The position numbers and the translations under genes were made by a program. The notes beneath the pieces are model-generated. The model searched no databases. It saw only the letters and a list, made by a program, of their open reading frames with translations, and had not been told where the DNA came from. Positions 1 to 34,924 of a DNA stretch of 39,805 nucleotides are shown here, in pieces. Positions within the stretch are counted from its first letter, which is position 1. Every line of letters begins with the position of its first letter. The DNA comes from a virus, in UHGV virus genome UHGV-0085625, one strand, 5' to 3'.

Positions 1-99
1 ATCATAATACAACAGCCGCCCTCCTCCCTGAGCTTCCAAGATATCAGAACTGTATGGTGGGATTCCTTGCTGCTTTGCCGTTTCTGAGAGCTTGGTATT
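1..99. repeat. Left terminal inverted repeat. It is the reverse complement of 39707..39805 (99 bp, single mismatch at position 56).
   Basis: Direct comparison of the window ends. Identity is exact over 55 bp, then one mismatch, then 43 more bp. It stops at position 99, 87 bp upstream of the XkdW-like gene. Confidence 0.9.
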
Positions 100-185
100 G
101 CGCACAATATGTAAGAAAATTCCGGGCCTGAAAGGGCCTTTTATAATACATAAAAATACAAATTATTAGAAAGGAAGGATGCCAA

Positions 186-473
186 ATGGAAAAAATCAAA
201 ATCCATGATACTGAATATGAAATCATCAGTATTATGCCGGTAGCCACAAACGTGCTGCAGATTGAATTTGTAGACACGGTTCCGGAAAAATGGGGAGATA
301 TCACCACATATACAGTTGGTGGGATGGAAGCCGGCTGCATCAGTGGATATGACACACTGTATCGTGCAGATGGTCAGATGATCTACCTGAGTAATGATGG
401 CAGTGTGTATGAGCCGCCAGAAGAGCAGGAGCTGATCAATAGGCCGATGCTGATCGAGGAGGCGGAAGGATAA
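186..473 (+). CDS. Small phage protein, XkdW-like by position (between tail fiber and lysis genes).
   Basis: 95-aa ORF with an AGGAAGG RBS. Its position matches PBSX gene order downstream of the tail fiber. Confidence 0.4.
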   Translation: MEKIKIHDTEYEIISIMPVATNVLQIEFVDTVPEKWGDITTYTVGGMEAGCISGYDTLYRADGQMIYLSNDGSVYEPPEEQELINRPMLIEEAEG

Positions 474-763
474 TGGAATACATACAGACGATCCTTGCGA
501 TTTGCGGAGGAATAAGTATCATAGGAGGAGCTGGTGCGGTTATCGTTAAGGTAATCAAGCCGGCTTTTCGCCTGACTGCGAGGGTGCAGAAATTAGAGGA
601 GCATTCAGACAAGGATTACAAAAGACTTGTCGCATTGGAGACTATGCAAAAACAGCAGTCTAAGAGTCTTGCAGCTCTGCTCAATCATCAGATCACTGGT
701 AATGGGATAGACACGATGAAGCAGATTCGAGACGAGCTGTTGGAATCTATTATAGACCAGTAG
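473..763 (+). CDS. Small membrane protein with a coiled coil (XkdX/XhlA-like, lysis-associated).
   Basis: N-terminal hydrophobic helix then a coiled-coil segment. ATGA start/stop overlap with the upstream gene. Sits immediately upstream of the holin. Confidence 0.4.
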   Translation: MEYIQTILAICGGISIIGGAGAVIVKVIKPAFRLTARVQKLEEHSDKDYKRLVALETMQKQQSKSLAALLNHQITGNGIDTMKQIRDELLESIIDQ

Positions 764-780
764 AAAGGAGGTGAGGAGCT

Positions 781-1011
781 ATGCTTAAAAACTGTGTATT
801 CCGAGCTGATGTGGATACCCGTCAGTGGATCCATGCGGCAGGCAGGAGAGCCATCAAGACCATGGCGCAGACATTTGTCGCAACCATCGGATCGGCAGCA
901 GTCATGGGAGAGGTCAACTGGCCTATGGTAGCCAGCGCATCCGTGTTGTCTGGCATCCTGTCGGTGGCAACGTCCATCGCAGGACTTCCGGAGCTGCCAG
1001 CCAAGACCTGA
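781..1011 (+). CDS. Holin.
   Basis: 76 aa with two hydrophobic helices and a GGAGGTGAG RBS. Located upstream of the endolysin. Confidence 0.6.
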   Translation: MLKNCVFRADVDTRQWIHAAGRRAIKTMAQTFVATIGSAAVMGEVNWPMVASASVLSGILSVATSIAGLPELPAKT

Positions 1012-1104
1012 GAGGAGGTGATCCGTAGGTCTCCCGATCCGGTCAGGGTCAGAGCCGGAAGGAACTACTATACAGCATTTAGAAGAAAGAGAGGATAAGA
1101 AACT

Positions 1105-1308
1105 ATGGCAAATTTAACAGGAAAACATCAGGACAAAATTCCAGGGATGGGAGGATACGTAAATGCAGGCCCAGATCTGCAACCCAAACAGCCGACACCG
1201 TATTTATACGATGCTCCGTGTGATGTACCGCATCCGGACAAGCATCAGAGTGGCGTTGGTGGTCCGTCTGATCGCAATAACAACGGTGTGGACGACAGCG
1301 GGGAGTAA
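1105..1308 (+). CDS. Hypothetical Pro/Gly/Asp-rich small protein.
   Basis: ORF with an AGAGAGGA RBS. Low-complexity composition, so the coding status is uncertain. Confidence 0.25.
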   Translation: MANLTGKHQDKIPGMGGYVNAGPDLQPKQPTPYLYDAPCDVPHPDKHQSGVGGPSDRNNNGVDDSGE

Positions 1309-1443
1309 AGCTGTGCGACGTCGCAACGTAGATAGGCCCCGGGATGCTCCTGAGGCCTATATTTTGATTGCGGCATAACTGCTGCTGTGCTATAATGCTG
1401 ATGTTACCGCCCCTATACTGGGAACAGAGAGGGGGTGTACAAC

Positions 1444-1530
1444 ATGGATCATGTTCTATCTTTTATTGTCGCTGTTGCGGCTGGTGTAGCCTGCCACTAC
1501 ATCATCAAATGGTTGGACAGCGATAAGTAA
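1444..1530 (+). CDS. Type I toxin-like 28-aa hydrophobic peptide (Fst/Ldr-like): MDHVLSFIVAVAAGVACHYIIKWLDSDK.
   Basis: Strong RBS (AGAGGGGGTG). Upstream TGcTATAAT extended -10 at 1388..1396. Single transmembrane helix with a charged C-terminus. Followed by a bidirectional terminator. Paralogous to the peptide at 2764..2847. Confidence 0.6.
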   Translation: MDHVLSFIVAVAAGVACHYIIKWLDSDK

Positions 1531-1582
1531 TCGGTAACCAGCCTGCGGGGTTAAGCCTTCCCGTAAAAAATAGGAATAGAAA

Positions 1583-1618
1583 ACCCGAAGGTGTACCAGA
1601 CCTCCGGGTTTTCGTTTG
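1583..1618. terminator. Bidirectional rho-independent terminator shared by the toxin mRNA and the convergent sRNA.
   Basis: 9-bp stem ACCCGAAGG/CCTCCGGGT with one mismatch, flanked by an A-run upstream and a T-run downstream. Confidence 0.6.
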
Positions 1619-1652
1619 TTGTCCAACATGGACTTGTTCTATCTTTTTGCCT
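1583..1652 (-). ncRNA. Predicted antitoxin sRNA for the type I TA locus 1 (RNAII-like).
   Basis: Minus-strand promoter TTGCAA(1687..1682)-N17-TATAAT(1664..1659). The transcript would contain the reverse complement of 1624..1648, which is a near copy of the toxin translation-initiation region 1440..1466. It would end at the shared terminator. Confidence 0.45.
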
Positions 1653-1748
1653 ACTGGCATTATAGCATATGCAGATTTTAATTGCAAGATACCTAAAAGT
1701 GGTTTTGTCCGGTTTTGTACCGGGCATTTTTTATTTGGAGAAAATACT

Positions 1749-2615
1749 ATGGAAAATACAGTAAAGAAACTGATCGACCAGGCCGCCCACTGGATTGGAT
1801 ATCTGGAAAAGAAAAGCAACGCCCATCTGGATGATTTTACCGTTAACGCCGGAAGTGGAAACTATACCTGCTTTGCAAGAGATTACAAGGAGCACACAGG
1901 ACAGAACCTGCAGGCCCAGCCATGGTGCGCTATGTTTGTATCAGAGGTATTTGCACAGACATTCGGATTGGAGACCGCCAAAAAGCTGTTGGGCGGCAAT
2001 CTGTACCATTATTGTCCGACAGGAGCCAATCAGTTTAAGAGGGCGGGCCGCTGGAGTTGGATTCCGGAGCCTGGAGCAGTGATCTTCTTCACCAACGGCC
2101 AGAGGGCTTATCACACAGGGATTGTGATCGAGGTAACATCCACCCGGGTCAAGACTATTGAGGGCAATACCTCAGGAGCTTCCGGCGTGATCGAAAACGG
2201 CGGCGGAGTGTGTCAGAAGTCCTACAGCAAGTCTTATGGGAAAATTCTGGGGTATGGTCTGCCGGACTGGTCTTTAGTATCAATGGAAGAGCAGGAAAAG
2301 AAATCCGGCTGGCAGCAGGAAGATGGTGGCTGGAGGTATTATCTTGGCAATGGTCAGCCGGTTCGAAATGACTGGTACTGGCATGAGGACAAGTGGTACT
2401 GGTTTGACGGCGCCGGCATGATGGTGTTCAATGTCTGGTATAAGTACAAGGATCATTGGTACTATCTGGGCGCTGACGGCGCCATGGTAACAGGCCAGCA
2501 GACCATCGACGGCAAGTGGTATATCATGGACGATCAGGGCCGGATGGTTGTGGAGCCGGTGACGCTTACTCCAGATCAGGATGGAGCGCTACAGTGGCCG
2601 GGACTGGCGGAGTAG
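1749..2615 (+). CDS. Endolysin: CHAP-domain peptidase/amidase plus C-terminal CW_binding_1 (choline-binding-like) repeats.
   Basis: Conserved Cys (QPWCAMF) and His (YHTGIVIEV) of a CHAP domain. Tandem GW/YY aromatic repeats follow. Start ATG 1749 with a GGAG RBS. The longer six-frame ORF starting at 1647 uses a TTG inside the TA repeat and is rejected. Confidence 0.85.
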   Translation: MENTVKKLIDQAAHWIGYLEKKSNAHLDDFTVNAGSGNYTCFARDYKEHTGQNLQAQPWCAMFVSEVFAQTFGLETAKKLLGGNLYHYCPTGANQFKRAGRWSWIPEPGAVIFFTNGQRAYHTGIVIEVTSTRVKTIEGNTSGASGVIENGGGVCQKSYSKSYGKILGYGLPDWSLVSMEEQEKKSGWQQEDGGWRYYLGNGQPVRNDWYWHEDKWYWFDGAGMMVFNVWYKYKDHWYYLGADGAMVTGQQTIDGKWYIMDDQGRMVVEPVTLTPDQDGALQWPGLAE

Positions 2616-2642
2616 AGAGTATACAAAGAAAGTATGATGTTC

Positions 2643-2680
2643 ACCCTCTGTTGAGAAAACAGCGGAGGGATTTTTTATTT
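2643..2680 (+). terminator. Rho-independent terminator after the endolysin gene.
   Basis: CCCTC...GAGGG stem followed by TTTTTT. Confidence 0.5.
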
Positions 2681-2763
2681 GCCAAAAAGTGGTGGAAAGC
2701 CGCATGATGCTGTGGTATTATAAATGTGCTGCCGTACCTCCAGCAGAAGGGAGGTGATTCTAC

Positions 2764-2847
2764 ATGAACGATAATATTTCAGCATTTATTATCTCTGTCG
2801 CAGCAAGTGTGGTTGGCTACTACATATGCAAATGGCTGGATAGATGA
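2764..2847 (+). CDS. Type I toxin-like 27-aa peptide, paralog of 1444..1530: MNDNISAFIISVAASVVGYYICKWLDR.
   Basis: GGGAGGTGA RBS. TGgTATTAT extended -10 upstream. Same hydrophobic-plus-KWLD architecture. Followed by a bidirectional terminator. Confidence 0.6.
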   Translation: MNDNISAFIISVAASVVGYYICKWLDR

Positions 2848-2898
2848 TGAACAGGCGGCAACAGCCTAAACGGATTGGCTCTCCGTAAAGAGCAAGAA

Positions 2899-2935
2899 AA
2901 ACCCCAGAGATGGCACCTCCGGGGTTTTTCGTTTT
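2899..2935. terminator. Bidirectional terminator of TA locus 2.
   Basis: CCCCAGAG/CTCCGGGG stem with one mismatch, A-run and T-run flanks. Confidence 0.6.
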
Positions 2936-2972
2936 GTTCTACATGAACTCTTTCAGCATTTATTTGGCTAAG
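2899..2972 (-). ncRNA. Predicted antitoxin sRNA for TA locus 2.
   Basis: Minus-strand promoter TTGACT(3004..2999)-N16-TATTAT(2982..2977). The transcript would contain the complement of 2935..2964, a near copy of the toxin translation-initiation region 2755..2789. Confidence 0.45.
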
Positions 2973-3360
2973 ATTATAATATGCCACTTCCGAGGAAAAG
3001 TCAACCGTTTCTTTTTGACCTGTGGAAAATCATAAAAGATAAAAAGGTAGGCAGTGTCAACCATTTGTCTACCTTGAGCAGATTCGTCTATAATATATAT
3101 GATGATACTATAGGTTTACAGATTTTCGGAAATGTAGATATATATTAGTAAATAAAGGGCTGTAGATGATTCTATAGCATACATAAATCATGCAAAATGT
3201 TACAGCTAAGCTTGGGTAATAACCCAATGGTTGGCGCTACTGTAGCTGTAGCTGTTTCGATTGAAGAAGCTGCAAAAGAAGGCAGATTCTAAGAAATCCA
3301 GTAAAATCAAGGATTTAAGCAGTACGGAAAAGTATACAAAAGTAGGAAAATGCACATAAC

Positions 3361-3410
3361 TTGTTTACTACTTGTTTATTATTTGATTACCGTATTTGTT
3401 TACCGTCAGG
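3361..3410. promoter_or_regulatory. Putative attP arm-type repeats (TTGTTTAC/TTGTTTAT x3), immediately 3' of int.
   Basis: Three direct repeats of TTGTTTA(C/T) sit between the int stop and the AT-rich region 3000..3360. Which part is the core attP cannot be told from this window alone. Confidence 0.3.
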
Positions 3411-3443
3411 TAGGGCTGAAAATTGGCCCTACCTGATTTTTTC
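3407..3443 (+). terminator. Plus-strand rho-independent terminator overlapping the int 3' end.
   Basis: 10-bp perfect stem CAGGTAGGGC/GCCCTACCTG followed by TTTTTT. It would block read-through from the lysis/TA region into antisense int. Confidence 0.6.
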
Positions 3444-4679
3444 AAGATCTGATCGCAGCCATTCCAGATCCCGGAGGGTGTAAACGGATTCTGTGATATC
3501 CTGGATTTTATGCCCCACCATCTCCTTTAACGCATATTCATCAACTTCGGCTTTCTTTGCCCTGGTGACGAAGGTATTTCGGGGATCATGAGGGCGGTGC
3601 TCTGGATTGAGATTAAGCGCTGCCATCACAGCCTTGAAACGATAGCTGTATTTATCATAGGTAATTTTATAAGAGCCGGCATGGGTTTGCCCCTTATCAT
3701 TAAAGAGGTATGGGCTTCCCAGAGACATGGCAATATCATAATTCTGTTTTACCAAGTCTCGGATTCTGGTATGGATTGGGACAATACGCTGCTTACCAGC
3801 ATCCGTTTTTATTCCGGCCTGCATATACCATTCTTCGAGATTGATCTCATCCAAACGGAGCAGGGCAAGTTCCTGAGGTCTCCATCCCATATAACATTGA
3901 ATCAGGATCCAGTCTATGTATTTCACTTTCCCGACATTTTCCCATAGGATGTTAAGCTCATTGTCTGAGAAGGGGATGTGGCTTCGCTTCGACGCTTCTT
4001 TTTCTTTCATAATGTCTTCCGATATATCAAATGTTCTGGCATAGTTCACGGTCACAATTTCATATTCCAGTGCATAGTCATACATCAAATTAAAGAGAGA
4101 TTTTATCCGTGCCTTTGTACCGGCGCTGGGAAATACCTTCTCACCTTTCTTTTTTCCGCGTGTTTCGATGCGGTATCCTTCGTCCATAACTCCCTTTATA
4201 TGCCTTGCCCGTACATCTTTTGCCCGCATCCGGTAGATGCTGGAACAGTAGGCCCAGGCGGATGTGATCGTACGAGCATAGCTTTCATCACAGGTGCTCA
4301 GGTAGGTATCGGTCCATTTTTCATAGAGTTCTTCAACGAGAATATCATCTTTAAGATCGTAAGGATTGCGGTTATAATCTATCAGGGCCTGATAAGCTTC
4401 GTTGTAAGTTGGAAAATAAGCTTTGGGCTTCAGCGGTTTCAGTATGGGTTTATTGAATTCTGTTTTTCCAACGCAGACTCGAGTCCAAAAGGGATTGCGC
4501 AGATTTTTGCCTTTTATTTCTGTGATGCTTCCGAAACCATTAGGCAGCCGTTTTCGTCTGGCACGTTTTTTATAATTGTTCTGGATAACCGTTCGATTCA
4601 ACGGATAACCGCAATGGGGGCAGGCCAGGGCCTTGTCACTGACTTGTAGCTGACATTCCGGACATTGAATCAGTGCCAT
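3429..4679 (-). CDS. int: Phage integrase (tyrosine recombinase) with an N-terminal zinc ribbon.
   Basis: CPECQ..CPHCG zinc ribbon. C-terminal catalytic residues HRPHDPRNTF..R and GHKIQDITESVYT (the R-H-R-Y set). AAGGAGG RBS. Confidence 0.9.
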   Translation of the reverse strand: MALIQCPECQLQVSDKALACPHCGYPLNRTVIQNNYKKRARRKRLPNGFGSITEIKGKNLRNPFWTRVCVGKTEFNKPILKPLKPKAYFPTYNEAYQALIDYNRNPYDLKDDILVEELYEKWTDTYLSTCDESYARTITSAWAYCSSIYRMRAKDVRARHIKGVMDEGYRIETRGKKKGEKVFPSAGTKARIKSLFNLMYDYALEYEIVTVNYARTFDISEDIMKEKEASKRSHIPFSDNELNILWENVGKVKYIDWILIQCYMGWRPQELALLRLDEINLEEWYMQAGIKTDAGKQRIVPIHTRIRDLVKQNYDIAMSLGSPYLFNDKGQTHAGSYKITYDKYSYRFKAVMAALNLNPEHRPHDPRNTFVTRAKKAEVDEYALKEMVGHKIQDITESVYTLRDLEWLRSDLEKIR

Positions 4680-4859
4680 AATTATTCCTCCTTATTGTTG
4701 CGACGTCGCACATTTTTGGGTATAAAAAATACACCTGTACAGGTGTAAGGAGGTATGGTACAATATGGGTGTTGAGATCATATTGTATTTGGCCTCCGTG
4801 GCCTGTACAGAATTTATCTAAAAGCCGTTCCTGTTGGCGCAGGGGCGGTTTTTGCGTTA

Positions 4860-6131
4860 TTAAGCAGACTGTTCCTGTTTTAAAATTTCAAGAGTTTCAT
4901 TATATTCTTTAGCCACTGGAATTCGTGTGAATTTGACTGTATTATTAAAATTTTCTTTAACTACCTTTTCTATATCATCCAAAGATACTTTAAAAAATTC
5001 TTTTCTTAAATTTACTCGATTTACACTTTGTTTTTCAAAAGCTTGATGTAAAGCTGTTTCAAGAGCAGGGGCATCGTCCGAGAATATCATGGCGTGTACA
5101 TCAAATTCAAAGGGGACAGAAGCACTTCCAAGTTCTTTTATACGATCCATAGGCTCTAGGCGACGTGTCATTCCTATTTTATATACATCCTGACCAAAAG
5201 AGCCAAGATTAGAAATAATATAGACATAACCTGCACGAGCATTGGCCTCACGTTCCAGAACGGTTGCTTTGTCAGCTTCTAATTGTTTTAACTTATCATT
5301 TAATTCTTTGATTTTATCGATGTATAATTGTTTTTCCACATCATCTTGGGTTTTTTGCATATACTGTATAAGACGATTGATTTCATTGGAACATTGGGTC
5401 TGGTCTTTTTCGAGTTTGGCCTTTTGACGTTCTATTTCTCTTCGAACCTTCTCTTCCTCTATCATTTGCTCTTTGATAGCCTTTTGCTGTTCGCGTTCCT
5501 GCTCTTTTTTTAATTCATATGTGTAAACAAGATTCAGTTCATCTAATTTATATTGTAGGAGTTTCTGATTCAGTTGTACATTATCAACGTCAAATAATTT
5601 ATTGAGAGTTTCAAAGGATTTTGTTATTTTGTTTCTTGCAGAATCAATGGTTTTAATGGAAAGATTTAATAAAACATTATCGCATTCAGCATTAAAGCAG
5701 CGCAGTATCTGTTTGGTATTGGCATTTAACATTTTTTTAGGAGAATTTCCGTATGTCTTTATAAAATTGGAATTTTTGATATAATTTTGCTCCTCCAATT
5801 TTAGAACAGCTAAATTATTTTTGCATTCTTCAGATGAAATCCCATCATAATCAGTAAAACAATAATGCTGGCACAAAACATCACCTTCTAAGACATTGAT
5901 TGCATCACATAGATTATTGTAGTCTGTTTTTTTATTATCAATTTCCTTTTCAAGATTAGTGATTTTATTATTTAAGGAATCGATATCCCCATATTTTTTT
6001 TCCAGTTTATTATTTTCAATCATTTGTAATGTGAGCAATACTATTCCTACAATAATAGAAATAATAGAGGGCCAAAACATAAATAGAATACAAATAAACC
6101 ATGTTTGAAGATACCACTTTCTTTTTTTCAT
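4860..6131 (-). CDS. Membrane-anchored coiled-coil protein with C-terminal DUF4041 and T5orf172 (GIY-YIG-like) domains. Candidate defense or superinfection-exclusion moron.
   Basis: N-terminal transmembrane helix, a long KE-rich coiled coil, and a C-terminal GYVYIISN...YKIGMTRR...PFEFD...LHQAF motif typical of T5orf172. AT-rich gene lying between int and the immA/immR pair. Confidence 0.7.
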   Translation of the reverse strand: MKKRKWYLQTWFICILFMFWPSIISIIVGIVLLTLQMIENNKLEKKYGDIDSLNNKITNLEKEIDNKKTDYNNLCDAINVLEGDVLCQHYCFTDYDGISSEECKNNLAVLKLEEQNYIKNSNFIKTYGNSPKKMLNANTKQILRCFNAECDNVLLNLSIKTIDSARNKITKSFETLNKLFDVDNVQLNQKLLQYKLDELNLVYTYELKKEQEREQQKAIKEQMIEEEKVRREIERQKAKLEKDQTQCSNEINRLIQYMQKTQDDVEKQLYIDKIKELNDKLKQLEADKATVLEREANARAGYVYIISNLGSFGQDVYKIGMTRRLEPMDRIKELGSASVPFEFDVHAMIFSDDAPALETALHQAFEKQSVNRVNLRKEFFKVSLDDIEKVVKENFNNTVKFTRIPVAKEYNETLEILKQEQSA

Positions 6132-6173
6132 ACCACATACCTCTTTTGCTTTTATTTATTAAAACGCCATTGG

Positions 6174-6623
6174 CTATTTTAATCTCAATTCAATCAATTC
6201 TTTTTGATAACCCAATACACGTGCTGCCTGTTCGATCGTATAGTCCTGATATCTGAAATATTCATATAGAACTTCATCGGAAATTAAAAATTCAACGGCA
6301 AATTTGTTGGCTTCCTGCTCTTTACGCGAATTAAGAAAGAGAGTTTTATGCTTTATGAAATAGCAGTTTTCACGAGGGTGAAGAATTGCATGACCTAATT
6401 CATGCGCCATGACAAATAAGCGCTCATTTCCTTCAAGATTTTCATTTATCCAGATATATTTATTACGCTTTAGATACATATAGCATCCTGATCGCGTGCC
6501 GATATCACCAATTGCAACTTCAATTCCGAGTGCTTCAGCTAAAGTAAAAGGATCGTTTGTCTGATATTTTTTTATGTAATAAGCAACTTTCTTTTTAATC
6601 GTGTTATTCAAGGCTGGACTCAC
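6174..6623 (-). CDS. immA: ImmA/IrrE-family metallopeptidase (anti-repressor protease).
   Basis: HEXXH motif (MAHELGHAILH). Immediately downstream of, and co-oriented with, the XRE repressor. Confidence 0.8.
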   Translation of the reverse strand: MSPALNNTIKKKVAYYIKKYQTNDPFTLAEALGIEVAIGDIGTRSGCYMYLKRNKYIWINENLEGNERLFVMAHELGHAILHPRENCYFIKHKTLFLNSRKEQEANKFAVEFLISDEVLYEYFRYQDYTIEQAARVLGYQKELIELRLK

Positions 6624-7049
6624 CTACTTTTTATTTTTGTTGCCATATTTTACTTTGTTCTTTACTTTTAATCTATGTAACATAAGATCCACTTGGCCTA
6701 AAAAGAGTTCGATATCATCATCAGGTATATCTTCCCCATCATACGCAGCAGGCCCTAAATCTTTATTAAGTAATTTTTCTCTTAGCGAATCAAGATCCTT
6801 TTTTATATCTCTTTCATCTCTGGCGGTTAACATAGGGGGCTTTTCTTTTATCATATCATTATTTCCAGTTGTTAGATAGTCTAATGTTACGCCAAAATAG
6901 TCAGCTATCTTTTGCAGCTTATCATTTTTAGGTTTACTTCGCCCACTTTTCCAATCAGAGAAAGTAGATTTTGTAATTCCGGTTGCTTTTACAACGTCAG
7001 AATCTTTAACACCTTTTTCATTTCGTAACTTGCAATAAATTTCGTACAT
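6624..7049 (-). CDS. immR: XRE-family HTH repressor (ImmR/CI-like).
   Basis: HTH TGITKSTFSDWKSGRS. AAGGAG RBS. Start ATG at 7049, so the six-frame ORF is trimmed. Divergent from cro. Confidence 0.8.
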   Translation of the reverse strand: MYEIYCKLRNEKGVKDSDVVKATGITKSTFSDWKSGRSKPKNDKLQKIADYFGVTLDYLTTGNNDMIKEKPPMLTARDERDIKKDLDSLREKLLNKDLGPAAYDGEDIPDDDIELFLGQVDLMLHRLKVKNKVKYGNKNKK

Positions 7050-7090
7050 AATGAACTCCTTAAAAGTTTGAAAATCCGTACAAAAAACTA

Positions 7091-7119
7091 TTGACAAGTT
7101 CTGAAATCCGTCTTATAAT
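7091..7119 (+). promoter_or_regulatory. Consensus sigma-70 promoter TTGACA-N17-TATAAT (lytic, rightward, PR-like).
   Basis: TTGACA 7091..7096, TATAAT 7114..7119. The flanking operator-like repeats AAAGTTCGGAAA(T/G) occur at 7128..7140 and 7219..7231. An inverted copy GATTTCCGAAC lies at 7196..7206. Confidence 0.75.
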
Positions 7120-7184
7120 ACAAATACAAAGTTCGGAAATCAAAACAGCCAAGTGTTGTTTGTTATTTTATGTCTGGTAAATGT

Positions 7185-7212
7185 ATTATAACTGATTTCC
7201 GAACTAAAATCA
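7185..7212 (-). promoter_or_regulatory. Leftward promoter TTGATT-N17-TATAAT for immR, face-to-face with PR.
   Basis: Read on the minus strand: TTGATT (7212..7207), 17-nt spacer, TATAAT (7190..7185). The two promoters converge with overlapping transcripts, a coliphage 186/P2-like arrangement. Confidence 0.6.
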
Positions 7213-7239
7213 ATAGAAAAGTTCGGAAAGGAGAAAAAT

Positions 7240-7440
7240 ATGTATGAAAAATATGTTACATTACGAGATAAAAGAAATGTGACAGATTACAGAGTATCAA
7301 TAGATACTGGAATTACGAAGTCTACTTTTTCTGATTGGAAGAGTGGTCGAAGTAATCCAAAACTGGATAAACTTCTTATCCTCGCCAAGTATTTTGATGT
7401 TCCGGTGGAGTATTTTGCAGAGACTGAGGACGGGAGGTGA
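7240..7440 (+). CDS. cro: Cro-like XRE HTH protein.
   Basis: 66 aa. Its HTH is nearly identical to that of ImmR (TGITKSTFSDWKSGRSNPK). GGAGAAAAATATG RBS. Confidence 0.7.
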   Translation: MYEKYVTLRDKRNVTDYRVSIDTGITKSTFSDWKSGRSNPKLDKLLILAKYFDVPVEYFAETEDGR

Positions 7441-7445
7441 GAGCA

Positions 7446-7783
7446 TGACAGAGAGCGTAATACAACTGACTCAGGCGAAGGAAATAGGAGAGCATATAGC
7501 TCGTATGCTTATGAGTGAGAATTCTGTACCCGAGTTTGGAGAGAAAGGCGTTCCGGTGGCCGTTGCAGCACGGGTTTTCGGGAAGGATGCTACTTGGATT
7601 CAGGCAGGAATCATTTCTGGATGGCTGCCTATTGGAATAGCGACTCAGGACAAACGGCAGGTTACAGATCTTAAACAGATGGAATCAGGAAAAAGAACCA
7701 ATTACTATATCAGTCCCAAAAAGTTATGGGAGTGGACTGGGTACATATGGAGAGGAGAAGAAAATGCAAGCAGAAGCAATTAA
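7446..7783 (+). CDS. Hypothetical early protein.
   Basis: ORF with a GGAGGTGAG RBS. No recognisable motif. Confidence 0.5.
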
Positions 7784-7985
7784 GTATCAGCCCCCAGTGG
7801 AGGACGTTGTAATCACTCAGGAGGAAGAGAAGCAGATCCTGAAGCTGGGCCGGATCGCTGGGGAGCAGCTCAGACAGAGCCATAAGGATGTGCGCCTGTT
7901 TGGTCGGCTGTCTACGGTGATGGCATTCCTCTTGGGGATGGAGACGGTGCTGCTATTGGTGGCCTGTGGGATTGTGACACTGTGA
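7764..7985 (+). CDS. Hypothetical small protein with a C-terminal transmembrane helix.
   Basis: ORF with a hydrophobic C-terminus. Confidence 0.4.
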   Translation: MQAEAIKYQPPVEDVVITQEEEKQILKLGRIAGEQLRQSHKDVRLFGRLSTVMAFLLGMETVLLLVACGIVTL

Positions 7986-8002
7986 AAGGAGGTGAGAAAA
8001 GG

Positions 8003-8197
8003 ATGGTTAGAGGAGCAAAGACAATAGCGGAATTTAAGATCCGTAAACATCTGGAAAAACTGGAAGAGAGAGGCCTTGTGATGGACAATATATCATTTGA
8101 GATGAAGAGCCAGAATGAAGCAGAGCTGACAGATGTGAATGGAGACAAACTGAGATTGATCTACGATCAGGAAACACGGACGGTTATAGAAATATGA
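8003..8197 (+). CDS. Hypothetical early protein.
   Basis: ORF with a GGAGGTG RBS 8 nt upstream of ATG 8003. Confidence 0.45.
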   Translation: MVRGAKTIAEFKIRKHLEKLEERGLVMDNISFEMKSQNEAELTDVNGDKLRLIYDQETRTVIEI

Positions 8198-8305
8198 GGG
8201 AGAGGAAAAGAATAAAAAAGGACCTGCACAGCGGCAACTGTGGCAGGCCCAGAAAATAAAAAATCAACACCCTCTATTATAAGGGAGAATGAGAGAGGAA
8301 ACAAG

Positions 8306-8506
8306 ATGGCAAACAGAAAAAATGATGTTTTTTGTGCGGACAACCAGTATGAAGAGGCTCTGATGCTTATGGGACGGGTCAATGCGCTGGCCGGAATTAT
8401 CCAGGCAAGCAAGTATACGATGATTGAATGTGAGACTGTGGCGGCAGTGCTGGGCTTTGAACTGGCTGAGAAGAAAGATAAGGGACAGGGAGGAAAAGCA
8501 GAATGA
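8306..8506 (+). CDS. Hypothetical early protein.
   Basis: ORF. Internal start chosen at MANRKN, which has an RBS. Confidence 0.4.
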   Translation: MANRKNDVFCADNQYEEALMLMGRVNALAGIIQASKYTMIECETVAAVLGFELAEKKDKGQGGKAE

Positions 8507-8703
8507 AAGTAAAGGTAAAAGAACTGGTTCCGGGACAGGTGATCCGGGTAGAGTACGGGGATTACGAAAACTGGGTTAATTTCCAGGTAGATGCAGTAAA
8601 ACCGGATGGAAGATATATCAATGTGGACTGCCACGCAGGCAGCATATATACAACCTTGGCGTTGGAGCCGGAGGAGATTGTGGAGGTAGTGGAAAATGCC
8701 TAA
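8503..8703 (+). CDS. Hypothetical early protein.
   Basis: ORF translationally coupled to the upstream gene (ATGA overlap). Confidence 0.45.
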   Translation: MKVKVKELVPGQVIRVEYGDYENWVNFQVDAVKPDGRYINVDCHAGSIYTTLALEPEEIVEVVENA

Positions 8704-8914
8704 CGTGATTATGGTCAGGAAGCCCAAGGGCATGAAAATCAACCGGGATGTACACGGGGATGCAGTGATAAAGATCAACTCAGAAGCGGCGGATACCCTG
8801 GAGCGGCTCCTCCGTGAAGCGCGGGGAAGCCTGTCAGTAAAGGAACTGGCATCCAGCATGATTAAATATGCGTCCAATGACACAATCATTAAGATTGAGG
8901 AGGATATGGAATGA
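8696..8914 (+). CDS. Hypothetical early protein.
   Basis: ORF overlapping its neighbours, typical of operon packing. Confidence 0.45.
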   Translation: MPNVIMVRKPKGMKINRDVHGDAVIKINSEAADTLERLLREARGSLSVKELASSMIKYASNDTIIKIEEDME

Positions 8915-9567
8915 ACATACATGAGAAACTGCAGCAGGTACAATCTGATTTGAAGGCTCCCAAGAACCAGTACAACAAATTTGGCGGTTATAATTATCGG
9001 AATTGTGAAGATATCCAGGAGGCAGTGAAGCCGCTCCTGAAAGCAGTGAAGGCGGCGCTGGTGGTGGGGGATGAGTTAGTATTGATTGGAGATCGGTATT
9101 ACATAAAGGCCACTGCTAGGTTCATAGACTGCGAATCTGGAGAAACTGTGGAAAATACGGCATATGCCCGTGAAGAACAGGAAAAAAAGGGCATGGACGT
9201 TTCACAGGTTACTGGCAGTACGAGCAGCTATGCCAGGAAATATGCACTGAATGGCCTGTTTTGCATTGATGATGTAAAGGATGCAGATAATCAGAATAAT
9301 GCCTCCGGGGGAACGGGGAAAGGGACATCTAAGGGCAGCAGGAAAAATGACGCACGGAAAGTCCAGGGACAGGCAGGAAAGGTTACGGAAGCTATGATAC
9401 GTACGTTGCAGTCTATGACAGAACGTTACAGTGCCAAGGGCCTTAAGATGGATAAAATCCTTTCCATGTATAAGTTGACTGCAATTACGGATATGGATAC
9501 AGAGCAGTATAAGGACTGCATGGAAAAGTTGAAGTTATACGAAAAAGAGGGAGGAGCCAAAGAATGA
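8911..9567 (+). CDS. erf: ERF-family single-strand annealing protein.
   Basis: N-terminal APKNQYNKFGGYNYRNCEDI...VKPLLK...LIGDRYY...QVTGSTSSYARKYALNGLF motif, characteristic of P22 Erf. Confidence 0.85.
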   Translation: MNIHEKLQQVQSDLKAPKNQYNKFGGYNYRNCEDIQEAVKPLLKAVKAALVVGDELVLIGDRYYIKATARFIDCESGETVENTAYAREEQEKKGMDVSQVTGSTSSYARKYALNGLFCIDDVKDADNQNNASGGTGKGTSKGSRKNDARKVQGQAGKVTEAMIRTLQSMTERYSAKGLKMDKILSMYKLTAITDMDTEQYKDCMEKLKLYEKEGGAKE

Positions 9568-9989
9568 ATAATGTTCAGTTGGTCGGGAGATTGACCAGAG
9601 ACCCGGAAGTCCGTTACTTGGACAATGGATCTACAGTAACAAGATTTACCCTTGCAGTGGACTGAAGAATAAAAAAGGAAGGGGGAGAAAACGCTGATTT
9701 TATTTCCTGTGTAGCATTTGGAAAAACAGCGGAATTTCTGGAAAAATGGTTCTTTAAAGGCCAGCGGCTGGGCCTGACTGGCCGGATACAGACAGGATCT
9801 TATACAAATCAGGAAGGAAAAAAAGTCTATACAACAGATGTTGTGGTGGACACAGCAGAATTTGTAGAAAGCAGGAGTGGATCCAGTAAACAGGGGGACA
9901 GGCAGGCCCAATTCCAGGGAAAAGATATAGGAGATGGGTTCATGGATATTCCGGATGATGTAGAAGACGAAGAATTGCCGTTTAACTAG
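9564..9989 (+). CDS. ssb: Single-stranded DNA-binding protein interrupted by an in-frame TGA at 9663..9665. Either a pseudogene or a read-through site.
   Basis: The N-terminus (MNNVQLVGRLTRDPEVRYLDNGSTVTRFTLAVD) and the rest of the OB fold (ADFISCVAFGKTAEF...GRIQTGSY...KVYTTDVVVD) are in the same frame, separated only by the TGA. It falls where an Arg (CGA) is usually found. The C-terminal acidic tail DDVEDEELPF is present. Confidence 0.7.
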
Positions 9990-9999
9990 AGGTGGCTGC

Positions 10000-10512
10000 A
10001 TGAATATACAGATTGACTCAAGGGAAAAAGCGAGGGCAATCCGAGTGATTGTAGAGGAATTTGACCGCCGGGGCGTGGATCATTTCGTATCAAAGCTGTA
10101 TGTGGGGGATTATATGAATTATGATAATCCCCGTCTGATTATAGACAGGAAACAGAACCTGACAGAGCTGTGCAGCAATGTGTGCCAGGGACACAGCCGG
10201 TTTCGGAATGAAATACTGCGGGCACAGGAGCATGGAATACAAATGATAATCCTGTGTGAACATGGGAAAGGGATTGAACAGCTGGAGGATGTGATATGGT
10301 GGGATAATCCACGCCGGCATAAGCGGTTTGTAGATCCAGAGACAGGCCAGTGGACAGAGCGTGAGACAAAAGCAATCACAGGGGACAAGCTGTATAAGAT
10401 ATTGCGCACATTCCAGGAAAAGTATGGATGCCTTTTTCTGTTCTGCGATAAGAAGGATACGGGAAAACGGATCATTGAGCTTTTGGGCGGTGATAGATGT
10501 GGATTGCAGTGA
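10000..10512 (+). CDS. ERCC4-domain (XPF/Mus81-like) nuclease.
   Basis: VGDY....IIDRK motif, the GDY...ERK signature of ERCC4 nucleases. Confidence 0.55.
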   Translation: MNIQIDSREKARAIRVIVEEFDRRGVDHFVSKLYVGDYMNYDNPRLIIDRKQNLTELCSNVCQGHSRFRNEILRAQEHGIQMIILCEHGKGIEQLEDVIWWDNPRRHKRFVDPETGQWTERETKAITGDKLYKILRTFQEKYGCLFLFCDKKDTGKRIIELLGGDRCGLQ

Positions 10513-28378: not shown

Positions 28379-29734
28379 ATGGCAGGAGGCACATGGACAA
28401 GCCAGAACAAAGCCCAGCCGGGTGTATACATCAACACCAAGTCGCAGGGCAACATCAGGGCAAATATTGGAACACGGGGGATTGTAGCGATCGCAGAACC
28501 TCTTTCCTGGGGACCGTCAGGGATTGTACAGACGATTATCCCAGGAGAGGATCTGACACCATATATCGGCTACGATATTACAAGTGAAAAAGCGCTGTTC
28601 CTCAGGGAAATGATGAAGGGAAGCGATACCACGGCAGGGCCATCAAAAATCCTTCTATACCGCCCCAAAGGAACCAGTGGGGCAAAAGCAACTGCAACAA
28701 TCGGGACATTGACCGCAACGGCTGTGTATGACGGTGTACGGGGAAATGATATTGCCATTATTATTTCGGCGGATCCGGATGAAGAAAAGACTTTCCAGGT
28801 CGCAACTGTAGTTGATGGATCTGTGAGAGATGAACAGACAGTCAAGACGGCAGAAGAGCTTGTAGGGAATGTGTGGGTTGTATTTAGCGGATCCGGAGAG
28901 CTTGAAGCGACCGCAGGGAAAAAGTTGACAGGAGGAAAGGACCCTACTGTAGCAACCACGGATTATGCCGCATGGCTCACGGCAATGGAGCCATATAAGT
29001 TTGATGTAATGGTCTATGACGGTGAGGATAAGACAACGATTCAGGCAGTAGCTGCTTTTGTCAAGCGTGTCTCAAACAATGTGGGACTGAAATGTCAGGC
29101 GGTTATGGCCGATGCTTCTGTATCAAATAGTGAGTGGGTAATTTCAGTCAAGAACGGAGTTAAGCTGGACGATGGAACCGTATTAACTCCGCAGCAAGCA
29201 ACGTGGTGGTTAGGCGGAGCAGAGGCAGGAGCGTTGTATAACCAGTCCCTGACCTATTCTCGTTATCCCAACGCGCTGGAAGCCTGCCCGAAGCTGACGG
29301 ATGCGCAGATCGAAGAGGCAATTAAGGCCGGGGAAATTGTTTTTATTGATACCTTTGACAAAGTTAAGGTATGCACAGATATTAACACATTTACCAGCTT
29401 TGCAGTGGATAAGGGTGAGGAATATTCCAAAAACCGTGTTATGCGGGTGCTGAATCAGTTCTGCAATGATGTATATGAGCATTTCAGTAATTATTTCATC
29501 GGCAAGGTAAGTAATGATGAGACCGGCCGCAGCCTGCTAAAAGGCTGGATTGTAGGGTATCTGAACGATATGCAGGCAAATAGCGGTGTCCAGAACTTTG
29601 AGGCTGAGGATGTAACGGTGGAGGCCGGAAATAGCATTGATGCAGTTCTGATCGCCGTGAAAATCCAGCCGGTGGACAGCATCGAGAAGATCTTCATGAC
29701 GGTTACAGTATCTGTAAACGTTGAAGCAGAATAG
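28379..29734 (+). CDS. Tail sheath protein.
   Basis: 451 aa. Start at MAGGTWTSQNKAQPGVYIN, a typical sheath N-terminus. Followed by the tube gene. Confidence 0.85.
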   Translation: MAGGTWTSQNKAQPGVYINTKSQGNIRANIGTRGIVAIAEPLSWGPSGIVQTIIPGEDLTPYIGYDITSEKALFLREMMKGSDTTAGPSKILLYRPKGTSGAKATATIGTLTATAVYDGVRGNDIAIIISADPDEEKTFQVATVVDGSVRDEQTVKTAEELVGNVWVVFSGSGELEATAGKKLTGGKDPTVATTDYAAWLTAMEPYKFDVMVYDGEDKTTIQAVAAFVKRVSNNVGLKCQAVMADASVSNSEWVISVKNGVKLDDGTVLTPQQATWWLGGAEAGALYNQSLTYSRYPNALEACPKLTDAQIEEAIKAGEIVFIDTFDKVKVCTDINTFTSFAVDKGEEYSKNRVMRVLNQFCNDVYEHFSNYFIGKVSNDETGRSLLKGWIVGYLNDMQANSGVQNFEAEDVTVEAGNSIDAVLIAVKIQPVDSIEKIFMTVTVSVNVEAE

Positions 29735-29744
29735 GAGGTAGTAC

Positions 29745-30215
29745 ATGAGCTTTTTACTTGAACGGGACGCCCTAAATGGAAAGGCAGGAAGCGGGTTCAT
29801 GACAATTGATGGCGAAAACCATGAGATGTTTGGACTAAAAAAATTTGATTCCAATGCAGAATTTCAGGAATCTGACTTTAAGGTAGTAGGGACCCGTCTG
29901 GTCCAGAAAAAGACTACGGGCGTATCTCTGACAGGTTCCATGACCATTTATTATGGAACGCCGCATTTCCTGCGAATGCTTCAGGATTATTTGAAGACAG
30001 GGAAGTTACCATATTTTACGATCCAGATCACAAATGATGATCCATCTTCCACGGTAGGGACGCAGACAGTGGTATTTTACAATGTAAAACTTCAGAAACT
30101 CCCCATTTCATCTCTGGATGCAGACGCTGATTTTCTGGAGATGGAAGTAGGATTTTCTTACACAAATATCGAGGTTCTGAATTGGTTTAAAGACCCGGAA
30201 CAGTTAGGAGGTTGA
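29745..30215 (+). CDS. Tail tube protein (XkdM-like).
   Basis: 156 aa immediately after the sheath gene. Confidence 0.7.
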   Translation: MSFLLERDALNGKAGSGFMTIDGENHEMFGLKKFDSNAEFQESDFKVVGTRLVQKKTTGVSLTGSMTIYYGTPHFLRMLQDYLKTGKLPYFTIQITNDDPSSTVGTQTVVFYNVKLQKLPISSLDADADFLEMEVGFSYTNIEVLNWFKDPEQLGG

Positions 30216-30222
30216 AATTATT

Positions 30223-30648
30223 ATGGGAGATATTAAAGCATTCCTGCTTCCGCCGGTTATGGAGGAAACGAAAGAGGTAGTAATTACAAAAAGAGCAGTA
30301 GGGGAGGATGGCAAGCCAGTACCGTTTGTGATTCGTGTAATTGATCAGGAGACGAATAACCGTCTGATTAAGCAGGCTACTCGAAAGAGCAAGATGAATG
30401 GCCAGCTGATCCGGGAACTTGATGATGATAAGTACGGAAAGCTGTTAGTAGGAGCCTGTGTTGTAAGCCCTAATTTTAAGGATTCCGAATTATGCGCACA
30501 TTACAAAGTAGTGGATCCGCTGGATGTACCAGGGCGTATGTTGACTGTTGGGGAGTACAACCGATTAGTCAGGGAGATCAAGAAGATCAATGATTTAGTG
30601 ACCGATGATGAAGAACTGAGTGAACTGGATGAAGAAGCAAAAAACTAG
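30223..30648 (+). CDS. Tail assembly chaperone (XkdN-like), short form.
   Basis: Lies between tube and tape measure. The slippery heptamer A_AAA_AAC at 30639..30645 sits immediately before its stop. Confidence 0.55.
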   Translation: MGDIKAFLLPPVMEETKEVVITKRAVGEDGKPVPFVIRVIDQETNNRLIKQATRKSKMNGQLIRELDDDKYGKLLVGACVVSPNFKDSELCAHYKVVDPLDVPGRMLTVGEYNRLVREIKKINDLVTDDEELSELDEEAKN

Positions 30649-30809: not shown

Positions 30810-30811
30810 AA

Positions 30812-32851: not shown

Positions 32852-32860
32852 GAGGATGGG

Positions 32861-33583: not shown

Positions 33584-33588
33584 TTCGT

Positions 33589-34915: not shown

Positions 34916-34924
34916 GGAGGAAGT

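What the first reader, a model, noticed from the sequence alone, without database searches (positions are those of the whole stretch)
1..104. 99-bp terminal inverted repeats, a second tyrosine recombinase and a 17-bp direct repeat point to a hidden invertible or mobile segment
Positions 1..99 are the reverse complement of 39707..39805 with one mismatch at position 56. There are exactly 55 identical bases outside the mismatch at both ends. That is what a k=55 de Bruijn assembler produces when a contig runs into a longer two-copy inverted repeat whose copies differ by one SNP. On that reading the true repeat probably continues beyond the window, and unseen DNA lies between the two copies. An XerC/D-like recombinase (38578..39573), distinct from the phage integrase, sits 134 bp inside the right repeat. 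A 17-bp sequence CCTTGGTATTGCGCACA straddles the inner edge of the left repeat (88..104). It recurs in direct orientation at 38491..38507, in the first codons of a minus-strand ORF just upstream of the recombinase. In the circular genome these direct repeats bracket the recombinase plus inverted repeats plus the missing DNA, like attL/attR cores of an integrated element. The inverted repeats themselves resemble the arms of a Mu G / P1 C-type invertible segment or a shufflon, placed exactly between the tail fiber and xkdW-like genes, where host-range switching cassettes are found. A composite insertion sequence inserted here is the alternative explanation.
Basis: partly seen in the sequence, partly recalled or inferred. 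Interest (0 to 1): 0.8.

Follow-up and report, generated by a model that had tools for sequence, protein, structure and literature searches.

The report
Tail-fibre shufflon cassette repeated in tandem prophages
The matching contig ends are two inverted copies of a swappable tail-fibre tip cassette, one in each of two neighbouring gut-bacterial prophages; the cassette belongs to a recombinase-driven DNA-flipping system that probably changes which hosts the phage can attach to, a kind of system already known from other gut phages.

Summary
The 99-nt terminal inverted repeat is real, with one mismatch at position 56. It is the inner edge of a 787-bp repeat. A public 204-kb scaffold contains the whole window collinearly (0 mismatches in 11,228 nt; 5 in 10,473 nt) and runs past both ends. 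There the window is the 39.6 kb between two inverted, 99.75%-identical copies of a cassette. Each copy holds two convergent tail-fibre C-terminal modules (C and E). One copy lies in the tail-fibre locus of an upstream prophage X, the other in prophage Y, which fills most of the window. So there is no circular genome, no hidden segment between the ends and no attL/attR.

The "17-bp direct repeat" is 16 bp. It is two of four window copies of a crossover site: the arm TGTGYKY plus the invariant core AATACCAA. One copy sits inside the tail-fibre gene and all four share one reading frame. In about 30 related loci, many with the identical recombinase, the same modules are joined to every site arm, at all cassette positions and in both orientations.

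This is a tyrosine-recombinase shufflon. It works like the R64 Rci and bifidophage Rin systems but is here found in Lachnospiraceae myophages.

The parts
1..91 (-). First 91 nt of tail-fibre C-terminal module C, allele G56 (..GIPPYSS..). It is the inner end of the cassette [E> <C] of the neighbouring prophage X.
   Evidence: The open frame NTK|LSETAKQQGIPPYSS runs off the left end. L049 9816-20288 equals window 1..10473 at 99.95% and continues upstream into module E and a 297-aa tail-fibre gene.
92..109 (-). Crossover site L4a: 8-bp core AATACCAA (92-99) plus arm TATTGTGCGC (100-109).
   Evidence: Arm L4a was seen only in 2-site, recombinase-less loci (one search lists 12 loci with it; arrangement read in 9 of them).
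110..3297 (+). Right arm of prophage X: two small ORFs (186-473, 473-763), holin 781-1011 and CHAP/choline-binding endolysin 1647-2615.
   Evidence: Pfam and PHROG hits. L043 and L048 match the window up to 3291 and then run into host genes ToxN/Asp23/NusB.
3252..3297 (.). att-like core at the junction of prophage X and prophage Y.
   Evidence: A 46-nt stretch recurs at the right end of prophage Y (L078 18878-18923, 95.7%); L043 and L048 diverge from the window here.
3429..4679 (-). Integrase of prophage Y, a tyrosine recombinase with an N-terminal zinc ribbon. It is distinct from the shufflon recombinase.
   Evidence: PF00589 E=1e-12, phrog_1.
36992..37906 (+). Constant N-terminal part of the tail-fibre gene (codons 1-305); the constant 308 residues end in ..LYTVLNTK, whose last codons are the core.
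   Evidence: phrog_7037 tail fiber E=7e-30; PF12571 and PF22337 hits, both below their curated Pfam cut-offs. The same N-terminus carries C-termini giving proteins of 310-425 aa in loci with the identical baseplate neighbour.
37897..37914 (+). Crossover site L1 inside the tail-fibre gene: arm TACTGTGCTC plus core AATACCAA.
   Evidence: (I9).
37915..38224 (+). Module A (QNEADRNIE..HS*), the C-terminus currently fused to the tail fibre.
   Evidence: Module A is found joined to L1, L2, L3 and L4 arms in other loci.
38249..38492 (-). Module B (ASKKDESNT..VTK*), a silent alternative C-terminus convergent with A.
   Evidence: L056 and L075 have L1|B and L2|A, the simple inversion of this cassette.
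38493..38510 (-). Crossover site L2: core 38493-38500 plus arm 38501-38510.
   Evidence: Contigs L001, L002, L007 and L008 begin exactly at this core and L004, L005, L009 and L010 within one base of it.
38578..39573 (+). Shufflon recombinase: an Xer-like two-domain tyrosine recombinase of 331 aa. An alternative upstream ATG at 38527 gives 348 aa.
   Evidence: PF00589 2e-37 plus SAM-like N-domain. Best solved relatives are XerA 5hxy (2e-27) and XerD, with the R, K, HxxR, H and Y motifs aligned. AAGGAGG lies 8 nt before the 38578 ATG.
39697..39714 (+). Crossover site L3: divergent arm GTAGGGCAT plus core AATACCAA.
   Evidence: L3 is joined to modules A, B, C, E, G and others in other samples.
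39715..39805 (+). First 91 nt of module C, allele A (..GIPLYSS..). It is the start of prophage Y's cassette [C> <E].
   Evidence: L078 1-11228 equals window 28578..39805 with 0 mismatches and continues C> <E|L4b, then the lysis genes and host DNA.

Best explanation
The window is a linear stretch of a Lachnospiraceae-type chromosome that carries two tandem prophages. Positions 100-3297 are the lysis end of prophage X. Positions 3298-39706 are prophage Y, from its integrase to the third site of its tail-fibre shufflon.

Both prophages carry a near-identical 787-bp cassette. It consists of two convergent tail-fibre C-terminal modules, C (92 aa) and E (164 aa), bounded by the 8-bp core AATACCAA. 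In X the cassette lies as [E> <C] and in Y as [C> <E], so the two copies form a 39.6-kb-spaced inverted repeat. A k=55 assembler stopped 55 nt beyond the only SNP near the inner ends. That produced the 99-nt terminal inverted repeat.

The cassette belongs to a multiple-inversion system. An Xer-like tyrosine recombinase (38578-39573) is inferred to pair sites of opposite orientation. Each site has an arm TNNTGTGYKY on one side only, plus the non-palindromic core. The recombinase would exchange strands within the core and invert the DNA in between. This fuses the constant 308 residues of the tail fibre (ending ..LNTK) in frame to a different C-terminal module of about 80-165 aa, presumably changing receptor specificity.

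The canonical locus has six sites: L1+ cassette I L2- | rec | L3+ cassette II L6- . L5+ cassette III L4-. The window's Y prophage is most likely the four-site version, L1|A, L2|B, rec, L3|C, L4b|E.

Shown: the sites, the shared reading frame, the permuted junctions, and the scaffold that spans the window. Inferred: catalysis by this recombinase, ongoing switching, and the effect on host range.
For: - Four exact cores against 0.3 expected, all in the frame N-T-K.
- Scaffold_27 of ERZ28660952: L049 matches window 1..10473 with 5 mismatches and L078 matches 28578..39805 with 0 mismatches. Their spacing fits exactly (38,577 nt). The junctions and alleles are the same as in the window: L4a|C(Pro) on the left, and L1|A, L2|B, rec, L3|C(Leu) on the right.
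- The X and Y cassettes are 99.75% identical over 787 bp in inverted orientation. Identity ends at the cores, and one of the two mismatches is window position 56.
- Among loci with the identical 331-aa recombinase, modules A, B, C, E, G and H occupy different arms. Examples: L071 L1|A L2|B L3|E L6|C; L072 L1|E L2|C L3|A L6|B; L080 L1|C L2|E L3|A L4b|B; L075 L1|B L2|A.
- Each module class is found on 4-5 different arms.
- The recombinase segment itself is inverted relative to the tail fibre in L064 and L074.
- The base after the core travels with the module and the six bases before it travel with the arm, so exchange lies within AATACCAA.
- The arm is conserved on one side only.
- Recombinase-bearing contigs are unusually fragmented. 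140 of 151 blocks hold only contigs under 2 kb, and many contigs start or end exactly at cores.
- The catalytic motifs are intact.
Against: - No reads were available, so active switching within one clonal population is not shown. All permutations are between samples or assemblies.
- The window's own sample was not examined. Its arrangement is inferred from a near-identical scaffold.
- The 2-site loci with arm L4a show the same orientation in every copy seen, so they may be frozen.
- No promoter for the recombinase was found.
- The modules have no Pfam family, so receptor binding is inferred from their position only.
- Loci that look like deletions between direct sites exist (L054, L057, L058 and the four-site forms), so the system is not strictly inversion-only over evolutionary time.
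Confidence: 0.88

Rival explanations
1. The window is a circular phage genome, and its two ends flank an unseen invertible or mobile segment that lies between 39805 and 1.
For: The terminal inverted repeat has the k=55 signature. The lysis-to-integrase contiguity in the window looks like a circularised phage.
Against: Scaffold_27 holds the window collinearly. Left of position 1 it continues into a different myophage tail module (baseplate J 340 aa, tail fibre 297 aa). Right of 39805 it continues into Y's own lysis genes and host DNA. The lysis-integrase junction is an att-like core shared with Y's right end. Arm L4a occurs only in X-type 2-site loci.
Confidence: 0.04
2. There is one physical cassette seen in two orientations. 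A single [C,E] cassette between L3 and L4 flips in the sampled population, so both ends of the contig run into the same module C.
For: Shufflon cassettes are seen in both orientations after L3 in other samples (L001/3/5 versus L002/4).
Against: The SNP at 56 is linked to the junction: Pro allele with L4a, Leu allele with L3. Exactly this pairing exists as two separate copies in scaffold_27. Y-type loci that carry the recombinase use L4b or L4c, never L4a.
Confidence: 0.05
3. The permuted junctions arise from homologous recombination or gene conversion among related phages. The adjacent recombinase would then be an unrelated Xer-like or integrase gene.
For: All permutations are between samples. 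Recombinase-less loci still carry the sites (L054, L057, L058 and the X-type loci).
Against: Breakpoints always fall inside one 8-bp core flanked by about 10 bp of arm, which is too short for efficient homologous exchange. Loci with identical recombinase and flanks (99.9%) differ only by inversions bounded by cores. In all seven recombinase-bearing loci retrieved through the baseplate gene the recombinase sits between L2 and L3, and it does so in every other recombinase-bearing locus read.
Confidence: 0.06
4. An integrated element bracketed by the 16/17-bp direct repeat as attL/attR, or a composite insertion sequence.
For: Two direct copies of CTTGGTATTGCGCACA are present.
Against: The motif has four copies in both orientations. 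One lies in frame inside the tail-fibre gene. No transposase is present; the repeat encodes modules C and E only. No empty-site or multi-copy IS pattern was seen in the related loci.
Confidence: 0.01

Closest known systems
Rin shufflon of Bifidobacterium breve/longum prophages (Mavrich et al. 2018, PMC6109161); also reported in Eggerthella lenta prophages (PMC8778435)
   Same: It is phage-encoded. The tyrosine invertase is Xer-like and lacks an arm-binding domain. The crossover sites are short and asymmetric. A constant N-terminal receptor-binding or tail-fibre part is fused to alternative C-terminal segments. A separate canonical integrase lies elsewhere in the prophage.
   Different: The hosts are Actinobacteria and the tails are TP901-1/1358-like RBP systems, whereas here they are Lachnospiraceae myophages with a baseplate-J/Mu gp48-type baseplate. 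The rix core TTCCCTAACCC is absent here; the site here is TGTGYKY + AATACCAA. In Rin the Rv segments lie between Rc and rin. Here the recombinase sits between cassettes I and II and can itself be inverted, and the modules come as convergent pairs. Sequence relatedness to Rin was not tested.
R64/IncI1 plasmid shufflon (Rci recombinase, sfx sites, PilV adhesin)
   Same: It is a multiple-inversion system with a tyrosine recombinase. Its sites have a core plus one conserved arm only. It swaps in-frame C-termini of an adhesin that determines partner specificity.
   Different: The target is a conjugative pilus tip, not a phage tail fibre. Rci is only 25% identical over 260 aa (pairwise E=3e-6) and has an extra C-terminal domain. 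rci lies outside the shufflon. Rci is reported (from my own knowledge) not to delete between direct sites, whereas deletion-like derivatives are seen here.
Mu Gin/G segment, P1 Cin/C segment, p15B Min multiple-inversion system
   Same: Inversion switches tail-fibre C-termini between convergent alternative segments, with crossover inside the fibre gene. p15B Min has six sites and many permutations. P1 C has long inverted repeats.
   Different: Those use serine invertases with Fis and an enhancer. Here the enzyme is a tyrosine recombinase, and no resolvase-family gene lies in the locus.
XerC/XerD/XerA chromosome-dimer resolvases
   Same: They are the best sequence and structural relatives (XerA 5hxy 2e-27; NCBIfam XerA 217.5 bits) and share the two-domain architecture.
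   Different: The score is below every curated cut-off (XerA 220, XerD 329.6, XerC 335). The gene is phage-borne, sits between tail-fibre cassettes, and is associated with multiple inverted sites rather than a single dif.

Membership tests
Shufflon / multiple DNA-inversion system (generic definition) | Three or more short crossover sites in both orientations that delimit segments next to a site-specific recombinase gene | tested here: met
   The window has four exact cores (2 plus, 2 minus). Complete relatives have six, with the recombinase between L2 and L3.
Shufflon / multiple DNA-inversion system (generic definition) | The same segments occur in permuted order and orientation in otherwise identical DNA, with breakpoints at the sites | tested here: met
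   L071-L080 share the identical 331-aa recombinase but differ in which module sits on which arm. Breakpoints lie within AATACCAA.
Shufflon / multiple DNA-inversion system (generic definition) | Alternative C-terminal coding segments are fused in frame to one constant N-terminal part | tested here: met
   All modules read in frame from NT(K/N). Tail-fibre products of 310-425 aa share the same N-terminus.
Shufflon / multiple DNA-inversion system (generic definition) | Switching occurs within a clonal population and depends on the recombinase | not testable with these tools
   No reads or cultures were available. The only indirect sign is that assemblies break exactly at the cores in many samples.
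R64-type shufflon (Rci/sfx) | The recombinase is orthologous to Rci | tested here: not met
   25% identity over 260 aa to R64 Rci (L081 17003-18157), which is similarity at superfamily level only.
R64-type shufflon (Rci/sfx) | Asymmetric site: a core plus a conserved arm on one side only | tested here: met
   The information content of 35 distinct left arms is high at TGTG. The 61 distinct right sides are nearly unconserved.
Rin shufflon (bifidophage) | A phage-encoded Xer-like tyrosine invertase without an arm-type domain, distinct from the prophage integrase | tested here: met
   Only the SAM-like and catalytic domains are present. A separate 416-aa integrase lies at 3429-4679.
Rin shufflon (bifidophage) | 11-bp rix site TTCCCTAACCC, with Rv segments lying between Rc and rin | tested here: not met
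   No match with up to 1 mismatch. The recombinase lies between cassette I and cassette II.
Rin shufflon (bifidophage) | Recombinase sequence homology to Rin beyond the superfamily level | not tested
   No Rin sequence was available in the collections used.
Gin/Cin/Min serine-invertase tail-fibre switches | A serine (resolvase/invertase family) recombinase | tested here: not met
   The only recombinase in the locus is PF00589 tyrosine type.
XerC/XerD/XerA | Score above the curated family cut-off | tested here: not met
   XerA 217.5 against 220; XerD 169.6 against 329.6; XerC 165.2 against 335.15.
Composite transposon / insertion sequence | A transposase gene in or between the inverted repeats | tested here: not met
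   The full 787-bp repeat encodes modules C and E only. The modules have no Pfam hit.
   There are four copies in both orientations, one of them inside the tail-fibre ORF. The true att-like core is at 3252-3297.

The most novel reading that the evidence does not exclude
The cassettes may be horizontally traded units. Site-specific recombination at the two bounding cores, in the manner of recombinase-mediated cassette exchange, would move receptor-binding module pairs between different phage lineages and between co-resident prophages. Prophage Y's recombinase could also act in trans on the recombinase-less two-site locus of the neighbouring prophage X. It might even invert the 39.6 kb between oppositely oriented X and Y sites.

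The evidence is that cassettes are 99.7% identical between lineages whose flanks are only 85-96% identical, and the identity ends exactly at the cores.
Probability: 0.3. Interest if true: 0.65.

Novelty: new member of a known kind. Interest (0 to 1): 0.45.

Why it matters
- **Assembly.** It explains a recurrent assembly failure. Contigs of these common human-gut prophages break at the tail-fibre locus, and apparent terminal inverted repeats can be misread as circular genomes or mobile elements.
- **Biology.** It extends phage-encoded tyrosine-recombinase tail-fibre shufflons from Actinobacteria prophages (Rin) to Lachnospiraceae/Clostridia myophages.
- **Scale.** The system appears widespread: the recombinase is indexed in more than 300 collection blocks and the neighbouring baseplate gene in about 2,400.
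- **Module pool.** It carries a pool of at least 20 module types.
- **Consequences.** If switching is active, host range in gut temperate phages is more plastic than single assemblies suggest. Host-prediction or phage-engineering work could use the short site (about 18 bp) and the small recombinase as a cassette-swap tool.

Tried and rejected
- blastn of 36900-39805 against 50,697 phage records gave no match.
- tblastn of the recombinase found no phage above 60% identity. The best cultured relatives are Terrisporobacter phage TPELB_ph1 and C. perfringens phage phiCp-D (31-33%). Both carry the gene between the last tail gene and the holin, but no convincing inverted sites were found there.
- The promoter and terminator scan of 37800-39805 was at or below chance.
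- A Pfam scan of eight modules gave nothing.
- The first attempt to fetch R64 under AP005147 failed; NC_005014 worked.
- A circular-phage reading was held until and then abandoned. Arm L4a proved specific to X-type loci, and scaffold_27 spans the window.
- I considered that Y might hold two copies of C in one six-site shufflon, since L015 does carry duplicated B and m09 modules. I rejected this because the identical scaffold shows a four-site Y locus with one C.
- The viral-contig scan for the Leu allele gave no hit.

Full report
**1. Observation**

Positions 1..99 are the reverse complement of 39707..39805. There is one mismatch, at position 56 (G on the left, A on the right), so the outermost 55 bases are identical.

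The exact shared stretch is 16 nt, 91-106 = 38492-38507 (D8). A tyrosine recombinase ORF is present at 38527/38578-39573 (PF00589, E=2e-37).

The 9-mer AATACCAAG occurs exactly four times:
- 91-99 on the minus strand
- 37907-37915 on the plus strand
- 38492-38500 on the minus strand
- 39707-39715 on the plus strand

Only 0.30 copies are expected by chance, and no shuffle in 100 reached four.

**2. Anatomy in the window**

All four cores are read in the same frame as Asn-Thr-Lys:
- In the tail-fibre gene 36992-38224: ..LYTVLNTK|QNEAD.. (module A).
- On the minus strand at 38500: ..CFNVRNTK|ASKKD.. (module B, 38249-38492, convergent with A).
- At 39707: ..AVGHNTK|LSETAKQQGIPLYSS.., open to the right end.
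- On the minus strand at 99: ..HIVRNTK|LSETAKQQGIPPYSS.., open off the left end.

So the 99-nt repeat is the 8-bp core plus the first 91 nt of one tail-fibre C-terminal module (C), joined to two different left arms.

The tail-fibre identity rests on phrog_7037 (7e-30), on PF12571 and PF22337 matches that fall below their curated Pfam cut-offs, and on the baseplate J and Mu gp48-like genes upstream.

The recombinase has a SAM-like N-domain and a catalytic domain. It has no arm-binding domain. Its closest solved relatives are XerA (5hxy, 2e-27) and XerD, with the R, K, HxxR, H and Y motifs aligned. It scores below every curated Xer cut-off. A strong AAGGAGG precedes the ATG at 38578.

**3. Relatives show a shufflon**

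The exact recombinase protein is common in public assemblies. However, 140 of the 151 blocks that hold the 348-aa form have only contigs under 2 kb. Four of the ten contigs read begin exactly at the L2 core, four more within one base of it, and several stop just past the L3 core.

After L3 these near-identical contigs carry different modules. C is in the window, L002 and L004. E is in L001, L003, L005 and L006. B is in L008 and G in L007. The [C> <E] cassette appears in both orientations.

Complete loci came from IMG/VR and from chromosomal contigs of 0.05-1.5 Mb, some of them long-read polished. They give this canonical order:

tail fibre(L1+) cassette I (L2-) | recombinase | (L3+) cassette II (L6-) 61-bp spacer (L5+) cassette III (L4-) | two small ORFs, holin, lysin.

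Each cassette is a convergent pair of modules.

Loci that share the identical 331-aa recombinase differ in which module sits on which arm:

| Locus | Arrangement |
|---|---|
| L071 | L1\|A L2\|B L3\|E L6\|C L5\|H L4b\|G |
| L072 | L1\|E L2\|C L3\|A L6\|B |
| L080 | L1\|C L2\|E L3\|A L4b\|B |
| L075 | L1\|B L2\|A |

Further points:
- Each common module is found on four or five different arms.
- In L064 and L074 the recombinase segment is itself inverted relative to the tail-fibre gene.
- The base after AATACCAA (G or C) always travels with the module, and the six bases before it travel with the arm. Exchange is therefore confined to the 8-bp non-palindromic core.
- Across 35 distinct arms the consensus is TNNTGTGYKY. 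The 61 distinct module sides are essentially unconserved, so the site is asymmetric.
- Modules are 83-164 aa and have no Pfam family.
- Four-site loci exist (L048, L056, L073, L075, L078, L080), as do recombinase-less loci (L054, L057, L058). They have the structure expected from deletion between directly oriented sites.

**4. What the terminal repeat really is**

The left arm at 100-121 (L4a) occurs only in two-site, recombinase-less loci of a different myophage, here called X. X has a baseplate J of 340 aa and a tail fibre of 234-297 aa. One search lists twelve loci carrying this arm, and the nine whose arrangement was read are all two-site loci of this kind.

ENA ERZ28660952 scaffold_27 (203,954 nt) settles the matter:
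- L049 (scaffold 102108-122395) matches window 1-10473 with 5 mismatches.
- L078 (scaffold 140500-161495) matches window 28578-39805 with none.
- Their spacing equals the window distance (38,577 nt).
- The junctions and alleles are the window's own: L4a|C(Pro) on the left, and L1|A, L2|B, rec, L3|C(Leu) on the right.

In that scaffold, the DNA left of window position 1 is the rest of C, then E, then the tail-fibre and tail genes of prophage X. Right of 39805 lie the rest of C, E|L4b, a second copy of the small ORFs and holin, an 868-aa gene, an amidase lysin, and the host genes ToxN/Asp23/NusB.

The two cassettes are inverted relative to each other. They are 99.75% identical over 787 bp, core to core. 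The two differences are the ninth core base on the E side and window position 56. A k=55 graph therefore merges 55 nt beyond that SNP, which is exactly where the window ends.

Window 3252-3297 is an att-like core. It is repeated at prophage Y's right end, and single-prophage relatives diverge into host DNA there. This explains why lysis genes abut an integrase without any circularisation.

**5. Mechanism (inferred)**

The recombinase would bind the arm and core of two oppositely oriented sites. It would exchange strands within AATACCAA and invert the interval. This replaces the module fused to the constant 308 residues.

Successive inversions between different pairs move cassettes among positions I to III. 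They also flip the 61-bp spacer and the recombinase segment, and all of these states are observed.

Ongoing switching and an effect on host range are not shown here.

**6. Comparison and novelty**

Functionally this is a shufflon. Phage-encoded tyrosine-invertase shufflons acting on receptor-binding proteins are already described. Rin in Bifidobacterium prophages was called the first phage-encoded tyrosine-family invertase (PMC6109161), and Rin-type loci were later reported in Eggerthella lenta prophages (PMC8778435).

The present system differs in several ways:
- The host phylum and phage type differ.
- The site sequence differs; rix is absent.
- The recombinase is embedded in the shufflon and is itself invertible.
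- The cassette architecture is convergent.

It is not an Rci orthologue (25% identity). It is not a serine-invertase system.

Literature searches found no description of this Lachnospiraceae system, but the corpus is incomplete. I rate it a new member of a known kind.

Host assignment rests on four matches from the genome-collection scan: L011 (a Lachnospiraceae MAG, 89% recombinase identity), L012 (a Clostridia MAG, 77%), L013 (isolate Clostridium sp. AM58-1XD, 74%) and L014 (an uncultured Clostridium sp., 75%).

**7. Verdict**

The circular genome, hidden segment, attL/attR and insertion-sequence readings are wrong.

Noticed in passing
window 22264-22279, 32447-32462, 1312-1327, 4697-4712: The 16-bp perfect palindrome GTTGCGACGTCGCAAC occurs twice exactly and twice with 2 mismatches, against 0 expected by chance. 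One copy lies just upstream of the integrase start and one lies inside the tape-measure gene. Its function is unknown.
   Followed up: partly
window 27652-28083 (-) and 28108-28296 (-): A HicB/HicA toxin-antitoxin pair is inserted on the opposite strand between the tail-terminator and sheath genes. The Pfam assignment comes from the identical locus L052.
   Followed up: no
window 4860-6131 (-): A 423-aa protein with DUF4041 (labelled SNIPE in newer Pfam), T5orf172 and MUG113 nuclease-type domains lies next to the prophage integrase. It is a possible defence moron.
   Followed up: no
window 3252-3297; L078 18878-18923 and 19950-19994: A roughly 46-bp att-like core marks the junction of two tandem prophages. 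It recurs at the far end of prophage Y, and a third copy (84%) lies beyond the ToxN gene. This suggests that several elements use one attachment site.
   Followed up: partly
L072 13682-18225, L074 2785-7209, L076 13943-18367, L080 12996-17419; L078 13189-17612: Just beyond the window's right end, related prophages carry an 868-908-aa gene plus an RVT_1 reverse transcriptase between the holin and the lysin, which looks like a DGR. In L078, the scaffold identical to the window, no RVT_1 reverse transcriptase is called at that position and only short ORFs of 210, 148 and 99 aa without Pfam hits lie there, so the RT may be degraded. If so, the same phage lineage would have two separate diversification systems.
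   Followed up: no
L065 3908-4903 (Terrisporobacter phage TPELB_ph1); L066 3929-4906 (Clostridium phage phiCp-D): Cultured clostridial phages also carry an Xer-like 'integrase' (31-33% identity) between the last tail gene and the holin, and TPELB_ph1 additionally has a second annotated integrase elsewhere. No clear inverted crossover sites were found there.
   Followed up: partly
L054, L057, L058, L040; X-type loci L043-L050, L062, L067-L070: These are recombinase-less two- or four-site loci, plus one locus with a truncated recombinase (L040). They look like deletion derivatives between direct sites, that is, frozen shufflons. In every copy of the X-type [E,C] locus, E is the expressed module.
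   Followed up: partly
L015 11181-11781 versus window 37907-38507; L049 9128-9914 versus L078 11130-11916: Cassettes are 99.7% identical between phage lineages whose flanking tail-fibre, recombinase and lysis DNA is only 85-96% identical. The identity ends exactly at the cores, which implies horizontal cassette exchange.
   Followed up: partly
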